Assembly: GCF_009914755.1 (NCBI RefSeq)
Contig: NC_060930.1
From: the human T2T-CHM13v2.0 reference genome, Homo sapiens
Reading direction: 5' to 3' (one strand)
DNA length: 64,000 nucleotides
The translations under genes and the position numbers were made by a program. Shown here in pieces: positions 14,434-48,606 of the stretch (position 1 is the first letter of the stretch; each line of letters opens with the position of its first letter). The notes below the pieces were generated by a model, which did not search any database, was not told the origin of the DNA, and worked only from the letters and a program-made list of their open reading frames with translations.

Positions 14434-14736
14434 TTTTTTTTTTTTTTTTTTGAGGCAGAGTCTCACTCTGTCGCCTAGGCTGGAGTAGTTAGTGGCTTGA
14501 TCTTAACTCACTACAACCTCCTCCTCCCAAGTTCAAGTGATTTTCGTGCCTCAGCTTCCTGAGTAGCTGGGACTACAGGCGCACGCCACCATGCCTGGCT
14601 AATTTTTTGTATTTTTAGTAGAGATGGGGTTTCACCATGTTGCCCAGGCTGGTCTCGAACTCTTGAGCTCAGGCAATCCACCTGCCTCGGCCTCCCAGAG
14701 TGCTAGGATTACAGGCATGAGCCACCACACCCAGCC
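14434..14736 (-). mobile_element. Alu (older J/S type)
   Basis: Poly-T head, full dimer; TSD gagac(t/c)cagttct at 14421-33 and 14737-49. Confidence 0.95.
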
Positions 14737-16142: not shown

Positions 16143-16261
16143 TGCCGCAGGGCCACGTGTACCGGTTCTGCACAGCTGAAGGCCTCTGGCTGCAGAAGGA
16201 CAACTCCAGCCTGCCCTGGAGGGACTTGTCGGAGTGCGAGGAGTCCAAGCGAGGGGAGAGA
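16143..16261 (+). CDS. GLP1R: GLP1R coding exon 4 (ECD C-terminal part)
   Basis: (V)[39 protein letters not shown]; ccccag acceptor, GTGAGT donor; 119 nt. Confidence 0.98.
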
Positions 16262-16628: not shown

Positions 16629-16735
16629 AGCTCCCCGGAGGAGCAGCTCCTGTTCCTCTACATCATCTACACGGTGGGCTACGCACTCTCCTTCTCTGCT
16701 CTGGTTATCGCCTCTGCGATCCTCCTCGGCTTCAG
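16629..16735 (+). CDS. GLP1R: GLP1R coding exon 5 (stalk, TM1)
   Basis: [35 protein letters not shown](R); cacag acceptor, GTAAGG donor; 107 nt. Confidence 0.98.
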
Positions 16736-19783: not shown

Positions 19784-20220
<437 letters not shown>

Positions 20221-20669: not shown

Positions 20670-22880
<2,211 letters not shown>

Positions 22881-23438: not shown

Positions 23439-24032
23439 GTGTGTGGTGCATCCAGGACCGCCTCAGGAGGGATGGGCGGTTGGAGGAGGCCTGCCTCTGC
23501 CACCCTAGACAGGCCTGGGACAGGAGAAGACAAGAGCCGAACAGTCCTGGCCCTTCGGGAGCCCCCAGTCTGATGGGAGAGGCAGTTCGCCTTGGGACCC
23601 TCCAGTCTGCTGAGAGAGGCAGTCTACCTTGGGGAGCTCCCAATCTAAGGGAGGAGACACTGCCCTAGGGAATTCTCAGTCTGACACAAAAGAGTAGTCT
23701 TTGGAGACACACTTGAGTTTGAATGTCAGCTCTGTCACTTACTATCTGTACACTTTTAGGCAAGTCACTTACTTCTCTGAGGCTGAGAAATAGGTGAGAA
23801 GTCACTTACTTCTCACCTGCAGGGGGATACATTACTTTCTTCCAATCAGGATAGTGAGGATTCAATGAGCTAAAGCAGATAAAGTCCTTAGCACTAGCCC
23901 TAGCCAGAGATGTGAGCTCTCTCCTCCTGCATTAACCATGGCAGGATAGTGGCTGGAGCAGGACGGGGAGTGGTATCAAGAGAGGCAGAGGGCAGAGCTG
24001 TTGTCCCCATGACACCCTTCCTCTACCCCCAG

Positions 24033-24192
24033 GACTCTCTGAGCTGCCGCCTGGTGTTTCTGCTCATGCAGTACTGTGTGGCGGCCAATTACTACTGGCT
24101 CTTGGTGGAGGGCGTGTACCTGTACACACTGCTGGCCTTCTCGGTCTTCTCTGAGCAATGGATCTTCAGGCTCTACGTGAGCATAGGCTGGG
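24033..24192 (+). CDS. GLP1R: GLP1R coding exon 7 (TM3, ICL2, start of TM4)
   Basis: [53 protein letters not shown](G); ccccag acceptor, GTAAGA donor; 160 nt. Confidence 0.98.
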
Positions 24193-27100
24193 GTAAGAAC
24201 CGCCATCACCCACCCTGGACCTGTGGCACGGGGGTGGGAGACCTTGACCCCTCTTCTAACATGGTACTTGGAACGCACTGCTGAGCAAGGGGCAAGGCCC
24301 ACTGGGTAACCCTCTTCCTGGGCACAGGACCTTCTGCCCCGGTGCTGTTAAGATGCCGTAGGGGGTTATGGTCCTCCCCTCCTCTGCATAACTCTCCTCC
24401 CTTAATGGAAGCCTCCACCGCATGTGGCCAAACACCACCCTCTACCACTATCATGCACACCACTGGAGGTCGTGGCACTGTTCTCTTAAGACCACATGGG
24501 GACATAAGTTCACACCCAGTCCCGGGCAGCCCGAGGGCCTGAGGGAAATGGTGAGTCCTGGGCCTCAAGGTGGGGAGGGGATCAAGAGGGTAGGGGGCTG
24601 GCTGGGGGGAGCCTGCTGGTGCTCTGTCACATGACGATGAAGAGGAGGGCTCAGAGGAGAGCCAAGTACAGTGGGGCAGGGGGGCCAGAGGCCAGCCAAG
24701 GAAAGGGTGGACGGCGGATGTGCCTGGAGCCCAGCTGGAAATGTTCTAGCCAAAAAAGTTTGCCAAGAACCATTGTGTCTTTTTTTTTGCTGGAACATTT
24801 CTGGTTGTGCTTCTGCCTCTCACCACGTGGGATTGTAATGAGGGGCAGCATTGGGGTTGGGAAGGGGGCTGGGATCCCCTTCACCCCTGGGAAAACATGC
24901 AACAGGCCTTTCTGGAGGGACCCACGGTACCCAGAGAATAGGCCCTGCCCTCTGTCCTCCCTAATCTGCCATTGAATCCACGAGTTTTCCTGTTCCACAC
25001 CATCCCCCGCCCTGCTTGCCACTCCTTCATTCACTCCTCCTTCCTTCATGCGCCCACCTCACGCTGCTCTGACCACGGCTGCCCCTGCCACGGACCTCCG
25101 GGGACTTTCCAGCTCAGTCACATCCAGACTCCTCTTCCCTGACAATGGTCCTGTCCCTGAGCCTTTGCAAGGCTGTTCTCCATGCAGGAATGTTCAGGGA
25201 GCATCCTTCCCACACCAGGGTGTCCGCTGCCTCTTCAGGAAGCTGCCTCAGGCCACCAGTCCTCGTGGTTCTGTGCTCTCTGCCCTCTCAAGCTCTCCAT
25301 CCCCTGTCCTTGCACTTCATTTATTTTTACTGGTGTTCCTCAGCCATTTTTCTCTATACAGCTCCCCCCACCCCCCAGGAGAAGAGTAGCCTGAGAGATT
25401 TTAATGTGACCAGTGTCTTGAGGACACCAAGGCCCAGAGCTGGCAGGGCCTTACAGGCAGAGCAGGCCCTGGAACCCAGGCCTCCTGACTCCCAGGCTCT
25501 GGGCCTGCGGCCATCATGCCCTGTTCTCTTGCCTGGGCTGCATCCCTTCAGTCCCCTGCAGCACCCCTGAGCAGGCTCAGGCCTCTGCACAGGTGGGCAG
25601 GTAGGCCTGGCTCCTGCTCACAGATCCCTGCTCCTCACCTGCCTCCTCCACTCCCAGAACCCAGTCCCTTCCTTGGCCTTTTCTCCCCGAGGCTTCTTCC
25701 TCCTGCTAGAGCAGGAGGAGGGAGGCCATCGAGGGCAGCTCAGGGAAGGCTGTCTTCAGGGTGGGGGACGGTGTCTGTCCATTCTAGGAAATAGCATCAG
25801 CGCTGTTAGTGCCTGTCACCATGGTGACCCGAGGGCAGGAACAATCAAGGGACGTGTGTGATGTGTGCAGAGGAGCGGGGGTGGCTGGAGTTTGGTGGGG
25901 ACACACTGCCCTAGAGGTCTCTGAGTGGGAGATGGGGGAGGGAGTGCCAAGTCCTTTTCCTACCACCTCACACCCTAGCTCAGGGCTCGGGGTCTGTGGG
26001 AGCACAAGGGCAAGACCCGGAGGACACCCTGCTCTAATCAGAACACCTTTTTCTTGAGGATTGGGGTGGGGGAGACGGAGAGAGATTCACAGGTTGCTAG
26101 GAGCTCAGACGTGATGCCAGGAGGCCTTGCCCAAGCTGGGATACTTGGGAAACAACTTTCAGCTTCATGTGCAAGTGGAAGAATTAAAATTAGGACTCTG
26201 ACACAGTTGGAGAGGTCCCCCAAAGGGCATGGCAGCTTCTGCTGCAGTCCCCAGGCAGTTGGGGGCCTGTAGAAACCCACATGGAGGCTGTGCAAGAGGG
26301 AGGCAAATGATGGTTGAGGGAATCATTACTTCCTGGAGCCAGTTGTGTGTGTCTTAATTTGAGCTTTTTTCTCCAACCTGTCTTGCTCGTTTTCTAAATG
26401 GGAGAAAGATGAAGCCAGCAGGGAGTGCGTAATGTTTGCATGCAGCAGGGCTTTCGTGACTGTGTTTTTTGAAAAGGCCTTGTTAAGGAAATGCTGACGA
26501 TGAGTGAAACTTGCCAGGTCTGGCTGATAACATGGGTGAGTGCCCTGATCCTGGAAGGAGGTCTCAGAGAGAAGGGACAGCAGGGGGCGAGGGATACCCA
26601 GAAGGAAGCTTCTGCATGTGTACGTGGTTCAGGAAATCGGCATGCTCTTGCCCAGACAATGTTCCTTCCCTTATTGGTGTGTTGACTCACCCATCATTCG
26701 TTCCATTCTCACTGGGCATCTTCTATGTGGCAGGGCCTGTACCATGTGCTGGGGCCTTTGGAGACCATCCCATTCCTTGTCCAGTCTCATAAAGGCCTGT
26801 TACTAAAGCACCGTAGATGCTGAGAGGTCCGATTTGTGTAGAAATCAATGGGCCAGGAGAGAGAGAGCTGATGAAGAATGCTGGTCCGCTGGGGGCTCCT
26901 TTGCCTCCTCCATCTCTCCCTGCATCATCAGGCACAGTAGATCTGGGCACACAACCTGCTTAGTAGCTGCTGTTGAGTGGACACTGATGTGCTAAAGACA
27001 TAGACAATGGTGACAGGAAAGGCTATGAAGTGGTTCTGTCCTGGAAATGTGCTCCAGGCAGAGATTCCCAAAGTCATACGTGCACACTCATGGTCCACCC

Positions 27101-27446
27101 ACCACACCCTCACACACACATGTCTACATACCTTAATATGCACATGCTTACCTATCTCAGACACATCTCCAACACTGAGGGAGGGGCCAACGGAGACGAG
27201 CATGCAGACAGCCAGTGCAGAAGGCCATTGAGGGCGGTGGGAGTGGGTATGGGATTGCAGCCCTGAATTCGAGCCCCACCTGTGCCCTTCTGAGTCCCTG
27301 ATCCATCTCCTCATATGTCATGTGAGGAAGGAAAATCCAATTTTAAATCAACCAACACAGACCCTGAGCTCTCAGGGTGATCTGGGCATTGAGGCTCTGA
27401 AGGTGAGTGAGGCCCAGGCTCTACCCTCAAGGAACTGGGAACCAGT

Positions 27447-28125
27447 TGTATTAATTCTCTATTGCTGCAGAACGATTAACCCTGAAACTTAGCTACTTAA
27501 AACAACGAACCATTGTTATCTCACAGTTCCTGTGGCCTGCAATCTCGGTTCAACTTAGCTGGGTACCTTGTGGCTCAGGATCTCACAGAGAAAACTCTTT
27601 AGGCAAGAGCATGTGGATTTCCTGAATCACATACACATATAGAAACTTCCTTCTTGGGCATCCCCCACCCCCTGCTGTCCCTTCTCTCTGAGACCTCCTT
27701 CTAGGATCAGGGCACTCTCAGAGAAGCAGCCAGCTGTCACCAGGGTTGCTGTCATCTCAAGGCTTAACTGGGGATGGAGAATCTACTTCCAAGCTCATTC
27801 AAGAGGCAGTTGGCAGGAAGCCGCAGTTGCTGGCCAAAGGCTGGAGGCCTCCATTTCTTGCTGCAGAGACCTCCATCTAGGCCTTCTGAGTTCTCTCAGC
27901 ACATGGCAACTGGTTTCCCCCAGAGCAAGTGATCAGAGAAAGAGAAAGAGAATGCAAAACAAGCCACAGTGTCTTTTATAACAATCAGAAGTGACATGCC
28001 ATCACTTCTGCCAGAGGTTCCTGGGTCACATGAAACAATGCTGATACAACGTGGACTAACTACCCAAGGGTATGAGCACAGGAGGTGGGGATCCCTAGGG
28101 GCCATCTTAGAGGCTGTCTACTACA
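27447..28125 (-). mobile_element. MLT1-type solo LTR
   Basis: tgtattaattctctattgctgc..aaacttag..ttaaaacaac..tctcacagttc and a terminal ggggccatcttagaggctgtctactaca. Confidence 0.7.
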
Positions 28126-28744
28126 CAAGTCAAGTCTCAGCCGAGTGGAAAGTAGTATTGTTGTAGCTGTTGTTATTGTAGGCCACTGCGGACAGTTAGT
28201 TGGTCAGCTGGCATCAAGGACTGGGCTCCTGTCTCCATTCCAGGATTCTGCCGAGCCCTCTTGAAGGTGCACAGTGGTAGGGAAGAGATGACTGAAAGGA
28301 CATCCAGTGCCTTTAGGAGTTGACTGGCAACGTGGGCTGAAGCAAGAGAGAAAATGGGCATCAGAGGGTTCGCCTGCTCCTTGCCTCATCCGTCATGCTG
28401 TCCCCACCGCATGGCCCAGTCCCGCTGCTGTTTGTGTGTCTGTGGCCTGGTAACTTAGCCGGGACTCTGAGGGCAAGTCCTGACAGTGTGCCTGGCACAC
28501 AGGAGGTGGGGGACTGATGACTGATGAGGACCTCTCTGTAAGGAAGAGTCTGGGGGTCCGCATGGGGCTCCTGCTGCCTCTGTTCTCCCAGGTGCCCAGA
28601 AAAAAACTAGAAAACATAGTTGGAGGCCAGGCAAGGAGAGGGGCTGGAAGTGTGAGGGGCTTGGGGCAGGGAGAGGCCTCGGCATGTAGACTGTGGCTCT
28701 GGCCTGCCAGCCCCTCTCCCCTTCTGTCTTTCCCTCTCTCTTAG

Positions 28745-28805
28745 GTGTTCCCCTGCTGTTTGTTGTCCCCTGGGGCATTGTCAAGTACCTCTATGAGGAC
28801 GAGGG
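28745..28805 (+). CDS. GLP1R: GLP1R coding exon 8 (TM4, ECL2)
   Basis: (G)[19 protein letters not shown](G); polypyrimidine tract + ttag acceptor, GTGAGT donor; 61 nt. Confidence 0.97.
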
Positions 28806-29379
28806 GTGAGTGTCCTGCTCCAAGGGGGCGGGTGTGCCCAGGTCCCCATCCTCAAGGTCCATGGGATTCCTTGGTACCTGGGGCACCCATCTGTTGAGAG
28901 GATAAAGGGGGGTACCAGGAGCTTAGAAGGTGAATTTAGTTCTCTAATCTCCCCTCCCTGCCCCTGCCCCTGCCCCTGCCCCTGTCCCAGGATTGTTTGA
29001 TGACTAACGGAACTGGGTCTGTGGGGTACATGGTGCCCTCCTGCAGGTTTTTCTGTAATATCTGCAAGTGAAATGTTTGTGTCATTTTGTATATGATGCT
29101 GGGTACACACATGACTGTGTTGGTAGGTCCTTGAAAGCTTGTTTGGGGGCTGTGTGCATCTCTGTGTATGACTGTGTATTTGGACTATGCGTGTGTGTTG
29201 TGTGGCTGTGCACTGGCAGGGCTCTGTGGGTCCATGGGACTGGTTTTTGGGTGGCTCCTGGGAGCTGTGTGTGTGGCACTCAACATGGCCATGTGCATTG
29301 GCGGCCTCTGTGCCTGCACCTGAGCTGGGGGTCCTGTGAGTCCTGCTGGATGCATGTGTGCATCTCTCTCCCTCCCCAG

Positions 29380-29449
29380 CTGCTGGACCAGGAACTCCAA
29401 CATGAACTACTGGCTCATTATCCGGCTGCCCATTCTCTTTGCCATTGGG
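29380..29449 (+). CDS. GLP1R: GLP1R coding exon 9 (ECL2, TM5)
   Basis: [23 protein letters not shown]; ccccag acceptor, GTGAGT donor; 70 nt. Confidence 0.98.
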
Positions 29450-29534
29450 GTGAGTGATGGTGTCAGGGATGGGAGTGGCAGCTATGATAGGGCTGGGCTG
29501 GTGCCCCCTGCCAATCCCCGGCCCCACCCCGCAG

Positions 29535-29623
29535 GTGAACTTCCTCATCTTTGTTCGGGTCATCTGCATCGTGGTATCCAAACTGAAGGCCAATCTCATG
29601 TGCAAGACAGACATCAAATGCAG
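29535..29623 (+). CDS. GLP1R: GLP1R coding exon 10 (TM5, ICL3)
   Basis: [29 protein letters not shown](R); cgcag acceptor, GTGATG donor; 89 nt. Confidence 0.97.
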
Positions 29624-29986
29624 GTGATGTAACTGAGCTGGCTTTACTGAGGACCCTCAGCAAGTGCCCCTTTCCTTCTAGCAGAGAGAGAGAGAGAGAT
29701 CCTGGGATGCTTAGCTTAGAGCCCTACACTACCCTCTCCTTCCACCCAGGCCTGGCCTTGGACCCCAAACCCTTGCTTTTGCCCTGTCTCTGGGCAGCCC
29801 CTGGACTTGTTGGGGTCTTGACCTCTATTCTTTCCCTCCAGGCAGCCTGTCCCAGGGTATTTGGGGTGGGAGAACATCCATGACCCAGATATCAGGACTT
29901 GGTAGGAAGTGGGGAGGGTAGAGAAAGGGAAGAAGAGTCCATGGGAGAGGTCCAGAATGACTCGAGATCTCTGCCCTGCCCCTCAG

Positions 29987-30125
29987 ACTTGCCAAGTCCA
30001 CGCTGACACTCATCCCCCTGCTGGGGACTCATGAGGTCATCTTTGCCTTTGTGATGGACGAGCACGCCCGGGGGACCCTGCGCTTCATCAAGCTGTTTAC
30101 AGAGCTCTCCTTCACCTCCTTCCAG
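29987..30125 (+). CDS. GLP1R: GLP1R coding exon 11 (TM6, ECL3, start of TM7)
   Basis: [46 protein letters not shown] (PxxG motif); ctcag acceptor, GTGACT donor; 139 nt. Confidence 0.98.
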
Positions 30126-30839
30126 GTGACTTCATGCTTGGGGACACTTGCTTGTAAAGTCCTAGAGTGGGGGTGGGACAGACACCAGCCTGCATCATGC
30201 AGATGGAAAAGGTGGGAAGACTGGGACCTGGAGGGGTGATCCCTGCCCAAAGTCACCTAGTTGGAGCAGAGCCAGAACTAGTATCCCCAGGTGTCCCAAT
30301 ACCTGGGCCAGTCTTCTCTGTAAGCACATGGGACAAGAAGCCTTCCTGGATGTAGCTCTGGGTACCAGCCTGGCATTGCAGCTGCCATCTACTTGGTGGC
30401 GAGCACCCTGCCAGGTGCTTTACATGCATTGTGCATTTACTCCTCACAGAACCCAGGAGATGTGCAGGGTTAGCCTCACTTTACAGAGGAGACTCAGAGG
30501 TGTTAAAACCAGAGTTACGGTGTCACAGTTTCAAAGAAAAGAACTGATCCTCTCCACTAGCATTAGATGATGCTAAGGGGGTGTAAAAATACAAAAAAAC
30601 TGGTCCCTGCCTGCCCCTCAAGAGTGTCATGAGATGCCTGCACACATGTGGGCTCATGTGTGTGTATTTACATACATGTGCAGACATACAGAACACAATT
30701 CTGGAGCCCTGGGTCTCCTTCATGAACAGATGGGGCTGGAGTGGGGAATATTCTCCATGATCAGAGTCATTGTACTTCACTGGATCAGGCCTCCTCAAGG
30801 AGAGGTTGGATGTAGGATCTCTACAGCTTCTGGGCAGCT

Positions 30840-30945
30840 TCTGAGCAGGGTCTCCTGGACCCCATGGCACATGCCTGGGAGACCCATGGGGAGAGGCTAG
30901 CTGGGGCCTGTAGCCAGGCCTAGTCGCAGAGGTGCAACCCTGGTG
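30840..30945 (+). repeat. Left arm of a 106-bp inverted repeat (intron 11)
   Basis: Reverse complement of 33529-33634 matches at 95/106 positions, ungapped (aligned by hand). Confidence 0.95.
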
Positions 30946-31120
30946 TTCCTTCAGAAAGGAAATGAGAGGGAAGCCACTGCCCCATTCCTGGATCTGCCTG
31001 GGCCGCTGGATTTGGGGAGGGGGTTGTTGAGGATGGAGTCCCAAAGTGCTTCCGACCAGGGCCAGTCTGCAGGGCACCTCCCTCCTGCTTCCTCCCTCTT
31101 GATGTGACTCTTGTTTCCAG

Positions 31121-31162
31121 GGGCTGATGGTGGCCATATTATACTGCTTTGTCAACAATGAG
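31121..31162 (+). CDS. GLP1R: GLP1R coding exon 12 (TM7, 42 nt, phase 0-0)
   Basis: GLMVAILYCFVNNE; tttccag acceptor, GTAAGC donor. Confidence 0.97.
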
Positions 31163-33528
31163 GTAAGCTCTGAGGAGGGACGGTGGGGACCCTGGTGGGT
31201 GGGTACCATCAGCCCGTCTGGAGTAGTACAATGGGGACTCCCATCAATCTTGCCAGCTGAAACCCCCTACTCACCTCACTGAGGCACTAGGGTTGAGAAG
31301 CCATCTTGTCCACAGATTTGGTTTTCTGTGCATGGTCTCTCTCACACATGAACACACACACACAAGTACATGTACAGGTATACCCTAATGGCATGTGACC
31401 CTAAGGAAGACCCAGACTCATGTTAAGGGGATCCTGAATGACCCTCTTTGCTTGGTGGTAGTGACTGTCACTTACAAAGTGATTCAACACACACATACCC
31501 AAGCCACATGCTTGGGGCTTTAATAATCACTATCTCATTTAATTATGACCCCCACATCCCTCAAAAAAAAACCCTGCTAAAATTCTTATTTCATATTCCC
31601 ATTTTTTATATATACATGAGAACACTGAAGATCAGAAAGAGTCAGGAACCTGCCCTAGGTTTGGAAATAGTGGCACACATCGCTTCTTAGCCTTTTGGCT
31701 AAGGTGAAGTGTGGAAATAGTGGCATGGCAGAGCCAGGATTCAAATTAATTCTGCATTAAAGCAGAAAGTACCCCATTCTTCATACACACAGGCAAGAGC
31801 CCTGGCTCACTGTGGGGAAGGGGGTGGCTTTCTGGTGCTAGGATGGGAGAAGGGGGTTCTCGCTGGCCCCACACACTCTCCTGAAAATGTCTGCAGGACA
31901 GCAGGCCTCCCTCCCATCCCTGAGATGGTCAGCTCCTGGGAGGAGGGCATGGCTGTGTTCATGGGCACCTGGAAAAGGCCCCTTCCACCAAGGTACTCAG
32001 CTTTGGAATCCCAGAGCTCAGGGATGTTGGAGTCAGCACATTAATAGGCTTGTCTTTTTCTATGGGTGTGGGGGATGCAGAAAGGACAGTGGGTGGGGAC
32101 CTGGGTGTTTCAAGGAGCTATGAGATGGCTCAAAGAAGCAATGTGATGTAGCAGAAAAGATGCAAGGATGCAGGCTTTGGCATCTTATTTGGTCTGATCT
32201 GGGCCCCATCACTTAATGAGCTGTGTGACTTTGCCTAAGTTACCTGCCCACTCTGAAACTTAGTTTGCTCATTTACAAAGTGGGGATAATCCTGTGAGGA
32301 TTAAGAAAGTCTGAAAAAGGTGCGAAAGGGGAACAGAGAACAAGTCCTTCCTTCAAGGTGGGATGCTGAAGGCCCATCCTAGCTCCTCACAGGTGCTGCT
32401 TGGCATGGAGAAACACACACCATTATCTCCAGATGCTCAGTAAGCAATCACTATTAGATCAGTATTCAGTGATTCCCAGAGACAGGGGCCTAAGGAATTT
32501 CAGAGGATGCCGTGCAGAGAAAATGAGGCTGGGTGAAAGGGAAGGGAGGGGAATGTTCCCTTGTCCCTGAGGCCTCCCCCTGCTTCTGCTGAACTGGCTA
32601 CCTGTGGGAAGTGTGGCCCTCAGATCTCTAAATGGGAGGGAAACCAAGGTCTCTTAAGGGTTTACTGCATATAAGGTGCTCAGAGTGTCTCATTACATCC
32701 AATGCTGTGCAGCAGATGGTATCCCCAATTCACAGCTAAGAACGTTAAGCCTCAGCAAAATGAAATGAGTAGCCTAATTCAATAGACAGAAGATGGTAGA
32801 GCTAGTGGGCTGTGGCGGGGGCAAGATCCCACTTAATGCCTCAGGGAAGCAGGTGCTGGGGAGGTGAAGGCAGCGCCAGGCAAAGAGTGGCCCATAAATG
32901 GGATTCTGGCTGTTCCTGGGACAGGTCTTAGAGGACCCAGCGGCTCCGTTTGGAGGGTAGGGCAGGGAACAGGCTCGTGACCCACAGGAGGCAGTCCTGG
33001 TCCTCCTCCACTGCCATATCCTCAAAATGAATTTCTTTAAAACTGATGCAAACGAGGAAGTGCAAAAACCTAAGCTCTGTGGGTGGCCTCCCCTCCAGGA
33101 ATGCTCTCAGCCAGCTGGGTGATGCGCTACCCAGCCCTGAGCTCTGCTGCTTTCCATTCCAGCCCAGTGGTGATGGGGGCAAGACAGGGTGGCATGTATC
33201 CTGTGTGGGGATGAGGAGCAGAGGCCTGTAGGGAGAGACTGAGGCTCCCTGCTGCCACCTTGTCATCTAGACCCCCCCACGTCCCCGTTTCTCACTTCTC
33301 TATCCTCTGACACTGTCACTGCAGCCCTACTAGCAGACACGTGTGCTTGGCTTCCCCCCCGCCATTGTGAACAGTCTCCCCTGACCCCTGGCTCAGCTGC
33401 CTCTCCAGATTCCATCCTTCCAAGCCTAGTCATCTCATCACCTCCCTCCTCATGCACCACCTATGGCTGGCCCACCTTTGTAAGGGGATAGTACTTCTTT
33501 GCCCTTGGAAAAAAACTTGATCCTGAAT

Positions 33529-33634
33529 CACCAGGGTTGCACCTCTCTGACCAGGCCTGGCTACAGACCCCAGCTAGCATCTCCCCGTGGATCTTCCAGG
33601 CTAGTGCCACGGGGTCCAGGAGACCCTGCTCAGA
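33529..33634 (-). repeat. Right arm of a 106-bp inverted repeat (intron 12)
   Basis: Partner of 30840-30945. The ORF track echoes it: HQGCTSATRPGYRPQLASP (minus) vs HQGCTSLTRPGYRPQLASP (plus). Confidence 0.95.
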
Positions 33635-36328
33635 GAACGGGAGAACCTGTCTCCCTTCAGAGCACCAGCCAGTTCCTTTAAACCCACCCTGAGACTCCTC
33701 ATGCCCTGGCTGCTCCAGGCACAAGGACAGATACATCATTGTCACTGGGCCACAAAAGACACATGTGGCTCTGGGGCTAAGGCCTCTGTCCACAAGAGCT
33801 GTTCTGCAGACCCAGGGTTGCCATGGCAATGCCAGGTACTTGTGACCTGAGGAGAAAAGATGGCTTGAATATTGGTTCTGTGTGGCTGCCAAGGCCTGCA
33901 CCAGCTGCTGGTGGGCGTGAGTGGGGACAGGGAGGGGGAGGCCTGAAGGTGGTTTTGCTGTAGCTTGTGCCTGAGAGCCACAGTGAGGTGACTCAGAGCC
34001 CTGAGTGCTTGTCCCAGCCCTGCCACTGCCGAGCTGTGTGACCTGGGGCAAGTCATTTTGCCTCCCTTGCCTCTGTCTCCCCAGCTGTAAATGAAGGTGA
34101 ATGAGCTTCCCAATTCACCCCGAATCCTGAGGCTGGCATGGTGCCTGCTGGAGAGGGAGGTCAGGAGGGGTGTGCTGCACTGCAGAGGTCGAGGGCAGGG
34201 ATGAGGATAAAAATCCGATGGTGGAGGAGGAAGTGTGGTGGCCTAAGTCCCAGCCCAGGTGCTCAGAATCTGTGGTGTTGTCTTTGTGGGTTCATTTTCA
34301 TAGCTGAGGAACAGAAGGAACCTGATGTGAGATGCTCATGCATTTATGTGTTCATTCATTTGGTTCATTTAAAACACATGTACTGAGCACCTGCTGTATG
34401 CTGGGCACTGTGCTAGGTTCAGGGATGCTGAGATGAAGAAGATGTGGTCCCAGCCCTCGAGGTGCTCCCAGGTGAGAGGTAGGAGATGGACCAGGGACAA
34501 GCAGGACTGCAAGAGCCACGCAGGCAGGAGGCCAGGGGTTAGGAGCCGGGCATTGGAATCAGGCCAGATCTAGGTTCAAATCCTGGCTGAGCGACCTGAG
34601 GAAATAAACACTCTGCACCTCAGTTTCCTCATCTTTAAATGTGGAGCTACTTTGCAGGGTTGATGTGAAAGTCAGCTAAGATAATTAATGGAAAATTCTG
34701 TGCATACAGTAAGTGCCCAATAAATATGGTGATTTTCAAGGACAATCGTGATTACAGGGGTCACAGCAGAGGTTCAGGAAAAGTGCTGAAGGAGATGGGG
34801 GCAGAAGGAGACACTGTGTGTCAGCACCCTGAGAAGTCCCATAGGTGTCCCTGAAACCTCTCTTTGGTCTCTGGTTTCCCGGAGGTGTGCCTCAGTTTAC
34901 CATCTTTCCCCCCCTCTCCAGCGGAAGGGCTATGAAACAAGCCTGGCCTCCTGGCAGCTGCACAAGTGGGGGCCACCACTGGACTCAGGGCCCCCATCCC
35001 AGCTGTCAGCATGCGCTCCCTTCACAAAGACTCAGCCGGGCAGGGAGCTGGCATACAACAGGGTGGCTGTAGGTGGTGTCTGCTCAGCCTCCTTCCCTCC
35101 CCCACTCAAGCTTGGGTTCATGACGCTGCATGGGACACTGGCGTCATCCTGGCAGGCAGCCTCTGGGCCATCTCAACTCTACTCAGTGCAGAAAATGTTC
35201 TTTTAAGGGATGGCATGCAGCCATACCAGGCGTCTTGCTGGGCATAGCTGGATGGACGACAAAGGAGGAGAGGAGGGTTGTTTGCACAGGGGCTGGTGGG
35301 GAGATTGGCCCCTTATCCACAGCCGCTGGCATCTGGCTGTCTTGGTGACTTGGCCTAAAGGGAAGGGCCCAGACCCCAGACACTCTGGTGTGGGAAGGGT
35401 GGGGACTTCAAAGAAGCTCTGGAAAGCAAATGTGTGGGAACATCACCCAGAAGAGCAGTCCAGACCCCCCAGGACTAGCTTGGCAGGTTCCAGCTAGGCC
35501 TCTCCAGGGACCAGAATCACTGGCCACCACCGGGAGCCACAGCATTGCCACAAACCCTCAAGGGATGGGGGCTCCACAGTGTTACTTGGATTTGTCTCTT
35601 TCTGCCCCAACAATCTGGCCCCCAAGCATCAGCCCTCCTGAGAGGCTTTTCCTGATGGGGAGGCCAGAGCCCAGCACAACAGGGATCCTGGCTGACTGAG
35701 CTCCCCTGGGCTGCACCCCCATGGTCACTGCAGTGTCTCTCTGGATGGCATCAGTTGAGAAGCCCTCACTGGCTGCCCCTTCCTCCCTGCTGTTTCCCGT
35801 CTCAGCCACATTCCTTCCTTCCCTCCCTCCTCCCCTGTGAGGTGCTGGGGCCTGGAGAGAAGCCCTCAGGGAGTTTAGAAGGGTCTGCTGTAGACACCAG
35901 GAAGGCTGGGGGTTGCCGTCCCCCTTCTCAAGCATCCAAGCTGAAACTGGACTGTGCGCTGTAAAGACAGAGTCTCTCTTCTCTCTCCCATCTCCTGTCT
36001 CCCTGTGTTTCACCCTCCCTCTCATTCTCTTCCGTTAAATAATACTGTGATGGATTGTAAAAGGTACTTAGCTGAATCACAGAGTTTAGAGATGGAAAAG
36101 ACCAATTAGGTCATCAAGCTGATCTCTCTCCTGAGGAGCTGCAGAAAATAGGAGACAACAATAAACAATTTTATTGGGATATTAATTTAGGAGCCCGAAG
36201 GCCTTGACTTGTGTCTCTTAATATAATGCAGTGGATTTCTTCCCTTCCCCACTAATGTAATAGTGGGGCCATTTTGTTAGCCATTGGTTTGCATGATGGC
36301 TTTCGTTTCCCTCCTTTTCCCATGGAAG

Positions 36329-36496
36329 GTCCAGCTGGAATTTCGGAAGAGCTGGGAGCGCTGGCGGCTTGAGCACTTGCACATCCAGAGGGACAGCAGC
36401 ATGAAGCCCCTCAAGTGTCCCACCAGCAGCCTGAGCAGTGGAGCCACGGCGGGCAGCAGCATGTACACAGCCACTTGCCAGGCCTCCTGCAGCTGA
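36329..36496 (+). CDS. GLP1R: GLP1R last coding exon 13 (helix 8, C-tail, stop)
   Basis: [55 protein letters not shown] then TGA at 36494-96; acceptor ggaag after a pyrimidine tract. Confidence 0.98.
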
Positions 36497-36585
36497 GACT
36501 CCAGCGCCTGCCCTCCCTGGGGTCCTTGCTGCAGGCCGGGTGGCCAATCCAGGTGGGAGAGACACTCCCAGGGACAAGGGAAGGA

Positions 36586-36588
<3 letters not shown>

Positions 36589-36630
<42 letters not shown>
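36589..36630. repeat. (CA)n microsatellite in the proximal GLP1R 3'UTR
   Basis: ~21 perfect CA units about 90 nt after the stop codon. Confidence 0.95.
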
Positions 36631-36636
<6 letters not shown>

Positions 36637-37010
36637 TCCTGCTTTCCCTCCCCAAACCCATCAGACAGGTAAATGGGCAGTGCCTCCTGGGACCATGGAC
36701 ACATTTTCTCCTAGGAGAAGCAGCCTCCTAATTTGATCACAGTGGCGAGAGGAGAGGAAAAACGATCGCTGTGAAAATGAGGAGGATTGCTTCTTGTGAA
36801 ACCACAGGCCCTTGGGGTTCCCCCAGACAGAGCCGCAAATCAACCCCAGACTCAAACTCAAGGTCAACGGCTTATTAGTGAAACTGGGGCTTGCAAGAGG
36901 AGGTGGTTCTGAAAGTGGCTCTTCTAACCTCAGCCAAACACAGAGCGGGAGTGACGGGAGCCTCCTCTGCTTGCATCACTTGGGGTCACCACCCTCCCCT
37001 GTCTTCTCTC

Positions 37011-46250: not shown

Positions 46251-46719
46251 GAGGTGAATGTAACCTGGAAAGAGAGGCAGGGGCCAGATCACTTTGGGCC
46301 TGGTAGGATAAAACCACCTAAACAACCACCTACCTACTGAACAACATCCCCAAGAGATTAAGAGTGCAGATATTATTTACAAATTGAGGTCCAAAGGTTT
46401 CTTTTCACTGCCTCATTCTAAGGTACCCGTCTGACCTCTGCTTTATTTCTGGTCTCAGCCTTTTTTTCCATGTGACAGGGATGTACACATCTGAGAGGGT
46501 TCCAGGGACATATCCACAATAAGCCCAAACAAATGAGATTTAAGAAAATTGTAAAATGAATGTTCACAAATAATAATTATATGCTACAAGTTATTATGAT
46601 ACAAATGTGATATTTTAAACTGTATCATAAGACACAGTGAAACTACTGCTATAGACTATGTTTTCCAGCATTTTGTTTATTCAAGTAGAATTCCCTAGAA
46701 ATGAAATGTATTCAAAGAC

Positions 46720-48284: not shown

Positions 48285-48606
<322 letters not shown>

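What the first reader, a model, noticed from the sequence alone, without database searches (positions are those of the whole stretch)
30840..33634. Non-Alu 106-bp inverted repeat brackets the in-frame TM7 exon 12: candidate RNA-duplex switch for a delta-TM7 GLP1R
Seen: 30840-30945 and 33529-33634 are reverse complements, ungapped, at 95/106 positions. The left arm ends 175 nt before exon 12 and the right arm starts 2366 nt after it, so the 2583-nt loop contains exon 12 and no other exon. In the pre-mRNA, 3 of the 11 mismatches would be G-U wobbles and 4 would be A-C mismatches. The GC-rich arms do not resemble Alu, L1 or MIR to my eye. Exon 12 is 42 nt, phase 0-0, so skipping removes only GLMVAILYCFVNNE (G395-E408). 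Established: skipping of the homologous 14-aa TM7 exon gives signalling-impaired isoforms in other class B GPCRs (CRHR1d, calcitonin receptor delta-e13, PTH1R delta-e14). Long intronic duplexes promote exon loop-out and back-splicing, and ADAR favours A-C mismatches. Inference: this duplex may control exon 12 skipping or be edited, in a major drug target. The mismatch spectrum could also just reflect neutral transitions after a local inverted duplication.
Basis: partly seen in the sequence, partly recalled or inferred. Interest (0 to 1): 0.85.

Follow-up and report, generated by a model that had tools for sequence, protein, structure and literature searches.

The report
Unique inverted duplication around GLP1R exon 12
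Two 106-base stretches that are reverse complements of each other really do flank the small exon for the last membrane helix of the GLP-1 receptor, but they look like an old local copying accident rather than a proven splicing switch.

Summary
Window 30840-30945 and 33529-33634 are reverse complements at 95 of 106 positions, ungapped. They enclose only exon 12, a 42-nt in-frame exon.

The arms are not a common interspersed repeat. Each arm, with about 300 nt of flank, matches only its partner in the whole T2T genome. The same tool did find 71-88% identical old repeats in a control query.

As RNA the arms would pair at -212.9 kcal/mol, against -94.4 ± 4.0 for shuffles. They pair in the minimum-energy fold of a 4-kb stretch of pre-mRNA.

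No result here shows a function.
- An unrelated 116-nt inverted pair lies in intron 7 (26538-26652 / 27602-27717). It has the same divergence and no exon in its loop, and one arm is an insertion into an old repeat.
- The mismatches show no excess of pair-saving changes.
- Exon 12 has near-consensus splice sites.
- One paper states that GLP-1R has no splice variants.

Best reading: a local inverted duplication about 40-56 million years old. It is able to form a duplex, is probably edited, and is probably neutral for exon 12. RNA-seq and primate alignments were not available.

The parts
30840..30945 (.). Left arm of the inverted repeat (IR1), in GLP1R intron 11. It starts 714 nt after the exon 11 donor and ends 175 nt before exon 12. 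GC 65%.
   Evidence: 95 of 106 to the reverse complement of the right arm. (no other genomic match). (ordinary local fold, z 0.14). (GC).
31121..31162 (+). GLP1R exon 12: 42 nt, phase 0-0, GLMVAILYCFVNNE (lower TM7 and start of helix 8). It is the only exon inside the 2583-nt loop. Acceptor ...cttgtttccag|G, donor GAG|gtaagc.
   Evidence: (translation, phases, splice-site contexts) and the hub annotation for exon coordinates.
33529..33634 (.). Right arm of IR1, in intron 12. It starts 2366 nt after exon 12 and ends 2694 nt before exon 13. GC 63%.
   Evidence: (no other genomic match). (z -0.18). (98 of 106 left-arm positions pair with it in register in the minimum-energy fold of 29987-34000).
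26538..26652 (.). Left arm of a second, sequence-unrelated inverted repeat (IR2) in intron 7. Probably the source copy.
   Evidence: 116-column alignment, 89.7%, 1 gap. (unique in the genome apart from its partner). (no similarity to IR1: local scores 14-17).
27602..27717 (.). Right arm of IR2, the derived copy. It lies inside a ~128-nt insertion that splits an old interspersed repeat. The insertion is flanked on both sides by CAGAGAA. The loop is 949 nt by the coordinates (26653-27601) and holds no exon.
   Evidence: alignment A1: three other genomic copies of the old repeat lack the insert. (flanking repeat hits at about 27441-27591 and 27732-27800). (junction contexts).

Best explanation
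IR1 is a two-copy local inverted duplication. One arm was copied in reverse orientation from the other, about 2.7 kb away, by a replication or repair template-switch type of event. This happened roughly 40-56 million years ago, which would make it primate-specific.

It is one of two such events within 7.1 kb of GLP1R. The other is IR2 in intron 7.

Both arms are intronic and lie on the same pre-mRNA, so they can anneal into a 106-position duplex with 95 Watson-Crick pairs, 3 G.U and 8 mismatches. That duplex encloses exon 12 in a 2.6-kb loop.

I judge that the duplex, when it forms, is mainly a substrate for double-strand RNA binding proteins, and that ADAR editing is likely. The best-context target is A30922, a UAG triplet opposite C. 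At most it nudges exon 12 inclusion slightly. It is not a selected switch.

Shown here:
- the repeat and its uniqueness in the genome;
- its pairing energy;
- the exon geometry;
- the insertion nature of IR2;
- the equal divergence of IR1 and IR2.

Inferred:
- the mechanism of origin for IR1;
- the date;
- that the duplex forms in vivo;
- editing;
- neutrality.
For: Origin
- There are only two copies in the 3.1-Gb genome, in cis and inverted, and homology ends sharply at 106 nt even with 300-nt flanks and E<=10.
- The tool's sensitivity is shown by 45 matches at 71-88% identity to old repeats for a control query from intron 7.
- IR2 has the same design. Its right arm is an insertion absent from 3 of 3 other copies of the old repeat it interrupts.
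- Template switching is documented to create new inverted repeats in primate genomes (PMC5453318, passages).

Same age and no extra constraint
- K2P distance is 0.113 ± 0.035 for IR1 and 0.105 ± 0.033 for IR2. Mismatches are 11 of 106 against 11 of 115, Fisher p = 1.0.
- G.U against A.C is 3:4 in IR1 and 4:6 in IR2. Pooled, 7 of 17, binomial p = 0.63.
- 3 of the 7 IR1 transitions are at CpG.

Rarity and clustering
- In 264 kb (the window plus 200 kb upstream), 104 local pairs of >=60 nt and >=80% identity lie within 10 kb. Only 3 have arms that match nothing else: 1 direct pair, and the 2 inverted pairs in GLP1R.

Duplex potential
- Cofold is -212.9 kcal/mol against -94.4 ± 4.0 for 100 shuffles. 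Self-folds are -45.2 and -37.9.
- 98 of 106 positions pair in register in a 4014-nt minimum-energy fold.

Against a strong splicing effect
- Exon 12 has a long pyrimidine tract ending in cag|G and a GAG|gtaagc donor. The exon 13 acceptor is the weaker aag|G.
- The stem sits 714 nt from the exon 11 donor and 2694 nt from the exon 13 acceptor.
- With this geometry placed at random in the gene, an exon falls in the loop in 40% of placements, and exon 12 alone in 3.9%.
- GLP-1R is stated to possess no splice variants (PMC10576055), and RefSeq lists none that skip exon 12 (hub annotation).
- The homologous exon is skipped in paralogues without a long repeat. For PTH1R the authors point to only 8 complementary bases of 11. 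Mouse Vipr2 intron 11 is 68 bp.
Against: - Very stable complementary pairs that loop out exons are depleted genome-wide, and exons so looped have lower inclusion, more so for stabler structures (PMC8052449). A -213 kcal/mol stem around a 42-nt exon could therefore well have some effect.
- Exon 12 is small, and small exons are known to be fragile in exon definition (recalled).
- Bracketing exactly the one exon whose loss is known to give dominant-negative receptors in paralogues is a 3.9% coincidence by geometry.
- GLP1R is reported as an islet splicing-QTL gene (PMC9479353). I could not see which junction, so alternative splicing of some kind does occur.
- IR2 is assumed to be neutral. That is not shown.
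- No outgroup genome was available. The derived arm of IR1, its date and any compensatory change are untested.
- The equal divergence has wide errors (SE about 0.035).
Confidence: 0.65

Rival explanations
1. Functional exon loop-out switch. The duplex forms on a fraction of pre-mRNAs, sequesters exon 12 in a loop and brings exon 11 and exon 13 closer together. This yields a primate-specific delta-TM7 GLP1R (loss of 14 residues) that signals poorly or traps the full-length receptor. Pol II speed, helicases or ADAR would tune the fraction.
For: - The duplex is extremely stable and forms in the minimum-energy fold.
- Looped-out exons have lower inclusion, increasingly so with stability (PMC8052449).
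- Exon 12 is 42 nt and in frame.
- The homologous deletions in PTH1R and VPAC2 impair trafficking or cAMP coupling. The PTH1R authors themselves invoked intronic base-pairing.
- GLP1R has an islet splicing QTL at an unknown junction.
Against: - No exon-12-skipped transcript is in RefSeq (hub annotation), and one paper states that GLP-1R has no splice variants.
- Six literature searches turned up no report of one.
- The twin IR2 has the same divergence and no exon in its loop.
- There is no excess of pair-saving substitutions.
- Exon 12 has strong splice sites and exon 13 a weaker acceptor.
- The stem is far from the splice sites. The 995-nt intron 11 can be spliced before the right arm, 2.4 kb further on, is even transcribed (inference).
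Confidence: 0.08
2. The arms are two independent insertions of a rare or very old transposable element, or of an element with long terminal inverted repeats. The similarity would then reflect a repeat family rather than a local duplication.
For: - The genome search scores only the best candidates and skips very common words (tool text).
- No Dfam or RepeatMasker run was possible.
Against: - 0 further matches for the arms or their flanks at E<=10. The same tool found 71-88% identical old repeats in a control.
- 90% identity between two copies of a family that has left no other copy is implausible.
- A single element spanning both arms would have to contain the ancient exon 12.
- IR2 shows directly that local inverted copying happened here.
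Confidence: 0.04
3. The repeat matters at the DNA level. Recombination between the inverted arms could invert the 2.6-kb segment that carries exon 12, giving rare null alleles, or the repeat could form secondary structures that stall replication.
For: - Inverted orientation in cis with exon 12 between the arms.
- Two such repeats cluster within 7.1 kb.
Against: - The arms are only 106 nt and 10% diverged. By my reading of the alignment, the longest uninterrupted identical blocks are about 24 and 18 nt, far below what efficient homologous recombination needs in mammals (recalled).
- The 2.6-kb spacer makes cruciform extrusion unlikely (recalled).
- No population data were available.
Confidence: 0.03

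Closest known systems
Exon loop-out by long-range intronic base-pairing (pairs of conserved complementary regions; Kalmykova et al. 2021, PMC8052449, passages seen)
   Same: Complementary intronic segments on either side of an exon, on one pre-mRNA. Stability is far above that catalogue's classes. The predicted consequence is lower exon inclusion.
   Different: That catalogue requires evolutionary conservation, and its structures are short. IR1 is a long, young duplication of untested conservation. Its stems lie 175 and 2366 nt from the exon. No inclusion data exist for it.
Inverted Alu pairs flanking exons (exon skipping, circular RNA, ADAR editing; recalled knowledge, not from a call)
   Same: Long imperfect intronic duplex around exons, and the canonical ADAR substrate. 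GLP1R itself has ~300-nt multi-copy inverted pairs (14435-14736 with 19784-20081 and with 21489-21790) around exons 4-5.
   Different: IR1 is not Alu and has no other copy in the genome. It is a third of the length. The enclosed 42-nt exon is very small for a single-exon circle.
Delta-e14 PTH1R and the class B 'TM7 exon' variants (PMC3179322, abstract and passages; VPAC2 delta exon 12, PMC1804204; CRH-R1d and the calcitonin receptor seen only as titles in reference lists)
   Same: Homologous 42-nt in-frame exon coding 14 residues of TM7. Skipping gives poorly signalling or dominant-negative receptors. For PTH1R the authors proposed intronic complementarity as the cause.
   Different: For GLP1R no skipped transcript is documented. 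The PTH1R complementarity is 8 of 11 bases, against 95 of 106 here. The paralogues skip without any long repeat.
Template-switch mutations that create inverted repeats (Loytynoja and Goldman 2017, PMC5453318, passages; de novo miRNA hairpins, 10.1101/2023.04.19.537475, listing only)
   Same: A nearby sequence copied in reverse complement creates a new inverted repeat able to fold as RNA. IR2 is demonstrably an insertion of such a copy.
   Different: The examples in the passages I saw span tens of bases. Here the copies are 106-116 nt and lie 1-2.7 kb from their source. IR2 carries a 7-nt flanking duplication (CAGAGAA). Two events sit side by side.

Membership tests
Interspersed repeat pair (Alu, L1, MIR or other transposable element) | Multiple dispersed copies elsewhere in the genome | tested here: not met
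   The arm (126 nt) and both arms with ~300-nt flanks match only self and partner in the 3.1-Gb assembly, the flanked queries at E<=10. A control query returned 45 matches at 71-88% identity. No Dfam or RepeatMasker was available.
Interspersed repeat pair (Alu, L1, MIR or other transposable element) | Similarity to the Alu-sized repeats present in the same window | tested here: not met
   blastn of the left arm with 100-nt flanks against the whole 64-kb window gave only the partner, and otherwise noise at E>=0.66.
Local inverted duplication by template switching or templated insertion | Exactly two copies, in cis, inverted, with sharp homology edges | tested here: met
   Homology stops at 106 nt on both sides.
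Local inverted duplication by template switching or templated insertion | One copy is an insertion relative to the ancestral sequence | tested here: inconclusive
   Met for the twin IR2: its right arm is absent from 3 of 3 other copies of the old repeat it splits. For IR1 neither arm interrupts a recognisable element and no outgroup genome was available.
Exon loop-out RNA structure | Stable complementary intronic segments on both sides of an exon in one transcript | tested here: met
   -212.9 kcal/mol against -94.4 ± 4.0 for shuffles. 98 of 106 positions paired in a 4-kb minimum-energy fold. Exon 12 is the only exon in the loop (and annotation).
Exon loop-out RNA structure | Conservation or compensatory substitutions across species | not testable with these tools
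   No other mammalian genome is held. Within the human pair, G.U against A.C is 3:4, with no excess of pair-saving changes.
Exon loop-out RNA structure | Reduced inclusion of the looped exon that depends on the pairing | not testable with these tools
   No RNA-seq was available. GLP-1R is said to have no splice variants (PMC10576055).
ADAR substrate (long intramolecular dsRNA) | Near-perfect duplex of tens of base pairs within one nuclear transcript | tested here: met
   There are four A.C mismatches. A30922 lies in a UAG context, while 33567 and 33591 have a 5' G. The ADAR context preferences are recalled.
ADAR substrate (long intramolecular dsRNA) | Observed A-to-I (A-to-G) changes in RNA | not testable with these tools
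   No editing database or reads were available.
Class B GPCR delta-TM7 splice isoform | Homologous 42-nt, phase 0-0 exon coding 14 residues of TM7 | tested here: met
   Compare the 42-bp exon 14 of PTH1R.
Class B GPCR delta-TM7 splice isoform | A transcript lacking that exon is actually made | not testable with these tools
   None is in RefSeq (hub annotation). None was reported in the papers found.

The most novel reading that the evidence does not exclude
A primate-specific accident of replication placed a -213 kcal/mol RNA clamp around the one GLP1R exon whose loss makes dominant-negative receptors in sister genes. In cells where intron 11 is removed slowly, the clamp diverts a measurable share of transcripts to a delta-TM7 GLP1R that dampens incretin signalling. 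This isoform would be absent from rodent models and tunable by antisense oligonucleotides against either arm.

A weaker novel reading is that IR1 and IR2 are the two scars of one complex template-switching event in an early anthropoid. I put that at about 0.35, with low interest.
Probability: 0.07. Interest if true: 0.7.

Novelty: new member of a known kind. Interest (0 to 1): 0.3.

Why it matters
GLP1R is the target of the most widely used incretin drugs, and one paper says it has no splice variants.

If the duplex did cause exon 12 skipping, there would be a human and primate-only, signalling-dead or dominant-negative receptor form that rodent models lack. It could vary between tissues or people. 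The hypothesis is cheap to test with junction counts and a minigene.

If, as I think more likely, it is a neutral relic, the value is modest. It is a clean pair of examples showing that local inverted copying of about 110 nt over kilobase distances creates strong long-range RNA structures in introns. It is also a caution that 'an inverted repeat brackets an interesting exon' has a 40% geometric expectation in this gene.

Tried and rejected
- Interspersed-repeat origin: rejected (control).
- Known RNA family in 30000-34500: nothing reached a gathering score. The best hit was a U2-like match of 28 bits against 46 at 31679-31777.
- Special local hairpins in the arms, such as a miRNA-like fold: rejected. 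Fold z-scores are 0.14 and -0.18.
- Sequence relationship between IR1 and IR2: none. Local alignment scores are 14-17.
- Further inverted or direct duplicates in 24000-37000: none beyond a 23-nt match.
- Retroposition as the origin: I saw no poly-A next to either IR1 arm in the contexts printed. This is my reading, not a formal test.
- Target-site duplication or microhomology at the IR1 junctions: nothing convincing by eye. IR2 does have CAGAGAA on both sides.
- Single-exon circular RNA from exon 12: judged unlikely because the exon is 42 nt (recalled size preferences, not tested).
- Literature: the searches gave no paper on GLP1R exon 12 skipping, a GLP1R circular RNA, or this repeat, judging from listings and the passages I read.
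- Furness et al. 2012 (PMC3415641) and Markovic and Grammatopoulos 2009 (PubMed 19733082) are not held.
That covers the catalogue of non-conserved long-range structures in PMC10691357 and the islet splicing-QTL tables of PMC9479353. Either could bear directly on the claim.
Full report
**1. The observation**

The repeat finder on 30000-34500 reports one long inverted pair: 30840-30945 and 33529-33634, 106 nt, 90% complementary, 2583 nt apart. Reading both arms and comparing them base by base gives 95 of 106 identical positions without a gap.

The 11 differences are 7 transitions and 4 transversions. Three of the 7 transitions lie in a CpG context in one arm.

From the given exon coordinates, the left arm ends 175 nt before exon 12 and the right arm starts 2366 nt after it. 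Exon 12 (31121-31162) is 42 nt, begins and ends in phase 0, and reads GLMVAILYCFVNNE. The exon 11-13 junction would be TTCCAG|GTCCAG. The numbering G395-E408 needs the 26 codons of exon 1, which lies outside the window; that figure is recalled.

The match is far beyond chance: E = 3.4e-36 in the window and 7.0e-32 against the whole assembly.

**2. It is not an interspersed repeat**

- blastn of the left arm with 100-nt flanks against the 64-kb window found only its partner.
- The window's own 3.1-Gb assembly can be searched. The 126-nt arm gave 2 of 2 scored candidates, itself and the partner.
- Queries 30500-31120 and 33250-33950 at E<=10 again gave only self and the 106-nt partner.
- The tool warns that it scores only the best candidates and skips very common words, so I needed a positive control. 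A 1351-nt query from intron 7 returned 45 matches at 71-88% identity to old dispersed repeats.

The blank for IR1 is therefore informative. No Dfam or RepeatMasker run was possible.

**3. A twin in intron 7 shows how such repeats arise here**

A self-comparison of the gene (1-41730, minus strand) gave 11 inverted matches at E<=1e-3. The four strongest were:
- two pairs of ~300-nt multi-copy repeats (14435-14736 with 19784-20081 and with 21489-21790);
- IR1;
- a second unique pair, IR2: 26538-26652 against 27602-27717, 116 columns, 89.7%, one gap, with no exon in its 949-nt loop (coordinates 26653-27601).

IR2 is unrelated in sequence to IR1 and is unique in the genome apart from its partner.

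The sequence on each side of its right arm matches an old dispersed repeat. In three other genomic copies that I fetched and aligned, the two sides are contiguous. The window copy carries a ~128-nt insert containing the arm, with CAGAGAA on both sides. So IR2's right arm is a derived, inverted copy of sequence about 1 kb upstream, inserted into a pre-existing repeat.

This is the outcome expected from template switching, which is documented to create new inverted repeats in primate genomes (PMC5453318, passages). The examples I saw there are much shorter.

For IR1 neither arm interrupts anything recognisable, and I found no clear junction signature. Its origin by the same route is an inference.

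**4. Age, and absence of visible constraint**

K2P distance between the arms is 0.113 ± 0.035 for IR1 and 0.105 ± 0.033 for IR2. Mismatch counts are 11 of 106 and 11 of 115, Fisher p = 1.0. At recalled long-term primate rates of 1.0-1.3e-9 per site per year, this is about 40-56 million years.

Pair-saving (G.U) against pair-breaking (A.C) transitions are 3:4 in IR1 and 4:6 in IR2. Pooled, 7 of 17, binomial p = 0.63. The exon-flanking repeat has thus decayed exactly like the repeat that flanks nothing.

The errors are wide, and IR2's neutrality is assumed.

**5. Rarity**

I searched 264 kb: the window plus 200 kb upstream (fetched).
- 104 local pairs of >=60 nt and >=80% identity lie within 10 kb of each other.
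- Only 3 have arms that match nothing else in the sample.
- These are one direct pair in the 200 kb and the two inverted pairs in GLP1R, which lie within 7.1 kb of each other.
- Between 24000 and 37000 there is nothing else above a 23-nt match.

The clustering and equal age suggest, but do not show, one complex event.

**6. What the RNA could do**

- The arms cofold at -212.9 kcal/mol, against -94.4 ± 4.0 (minimum -106.7) for 100 dinucleotide shuffles of one arm.
- Each arm alone folds at -45.2 and -37.9. These are ordinary values: z = 0.14 and -0.18.
- In the minimum-energy fold of 29987-34000 (4014 nt), 98 of 106 left-arm positions pair in register with the right arm.

Thermodynamically the stem will form if both arms coexist on one transcript. 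Whether they do is a matter of kinetics and was not tested.

- Intron 11 is 995 nt, and the right arm is made 2.4 kb after exon 12.
- Exon 12 has a long pyrimidine tract ending in cag|G and a GAG|gtaagc donor. Exon 13's acceptor is aag|G.
- The stem would shorten the exon 11 to exon 13 path only from 6.2 to about 3.4 kb, and it leaves the exon 12 sites and branch region free.

Genome-wide, exons looped out by complementary regions are included less, and more so for stabler structures (PMC8052449). Some effect is therefore possible. I expect it to be small.

Editing by ADAR is the most likely molecular consequence. Of the four A.C sites, A30922 sits in UAG, while 33567 and 33591 have a 5' G. 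The context preferences are recalled.

**7. Chance of the geometry**

I placed this arm-loop-arm layout at every position in the windowed gene where both arms stay intronic (28,972 of 33,534 placements).
- The loop holds at least one exon in 40%.
- It holds exactly one exon in 16%.
- It holds exactly one in-frame exon in 6%.
- It holds exon 12 alone in 3.9%.

**8. What is known**

- Skipping of the homologous 42-bp exon 14 of PTH1R gives a poorly expressed, dominant-negative receptor. Its authors already proposed base-pairing between the flanking introns, 8 of 11 bases (PMC3179322, abstract and passages).
- I saw the CRH-R1d and calcitonin receptor cases only as titles in reference lists.
- For GLP1R, PMC10576055 says the receptor possesses no splice variants, and RefSeq's other transcripts differ only in the last exon (hub annotation).
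- GLP1R is listed among islet splicing-QTL genes (PMC9479353), but the junction was not in the passages I saw.
- Searches found no report of exon 12 skipping, a GLP1R circular RNA, or this repeat.

**9. Verdict**

The feature is real, unique and structurally striking. Its most likely nature is a local inverted duplication tens of millions of years old, one of two in this gene, that is neutral or nearly so for splicing.

The switch hypothesis is not excluded; I give it about 0.07-0.08. It is directly testable with junction counts, primate alignments and a minigene.

Noticed in passing
window 26538-26652 and 27602-27717: A second unique, non-Alu inverted repeat (116 columns, 89.7%, 949-nt loop by the coordinates) lies in GLP1R intron 7 with no exon inside. 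It has the same size and divergence as the exon-12 repeat. Its duplex energy is -211.5 kcal/mol.
   Followed up: yes
window about 27441-27591 and 27732-27800; L003, L004, L005: An old dispersed repeat, with 40 or more genomic matches at 71-88% identity and no family name from any tool, is split in the window by a ~128-nt insert carrying the IR2 right arm. The insert is flanked on both sides by CAGAGAA.
   Followed up: yes
window 14435-14736 with 19784-20081 and 21489-21790: Inverted pairs of ~300-nt multi-copy repeats (84% and 81% identity) bracket exons 4 and 5 (16143-16261, 16629-16735). This is the usual layout for circular RNA or exon skipping, so IR1 is not the only exon-flanking inverted repeat in GLP1R.
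   Followed up: no
window 31679-31777 (+): A weak U2 snRNA-like match lies inside the IR1 loop: 28 bits against a gathering score of 46, E = 0.0076. It is probably chance or a decayed pseudogene fragment.
   Followed up: no
L010:6566-6649 and L010:8514-8597 (200-kb upstream sample, positions 46566-46649 and 48514-48597): This is the only other unique local duplicate in the 264-kb sample: a direct pair of 84 nt at 95%, 1865 nt apart.
   Followed up: no
GLP1R gene as a whole (literature): GLP1R is reported as a splicing-QTL gene in human islets, colocalising with glycaemic traits (PMC9479353). Another paper says the receptor has no splice variants (PMC10576055). I could not see which junction varies.
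   Followed up: partly
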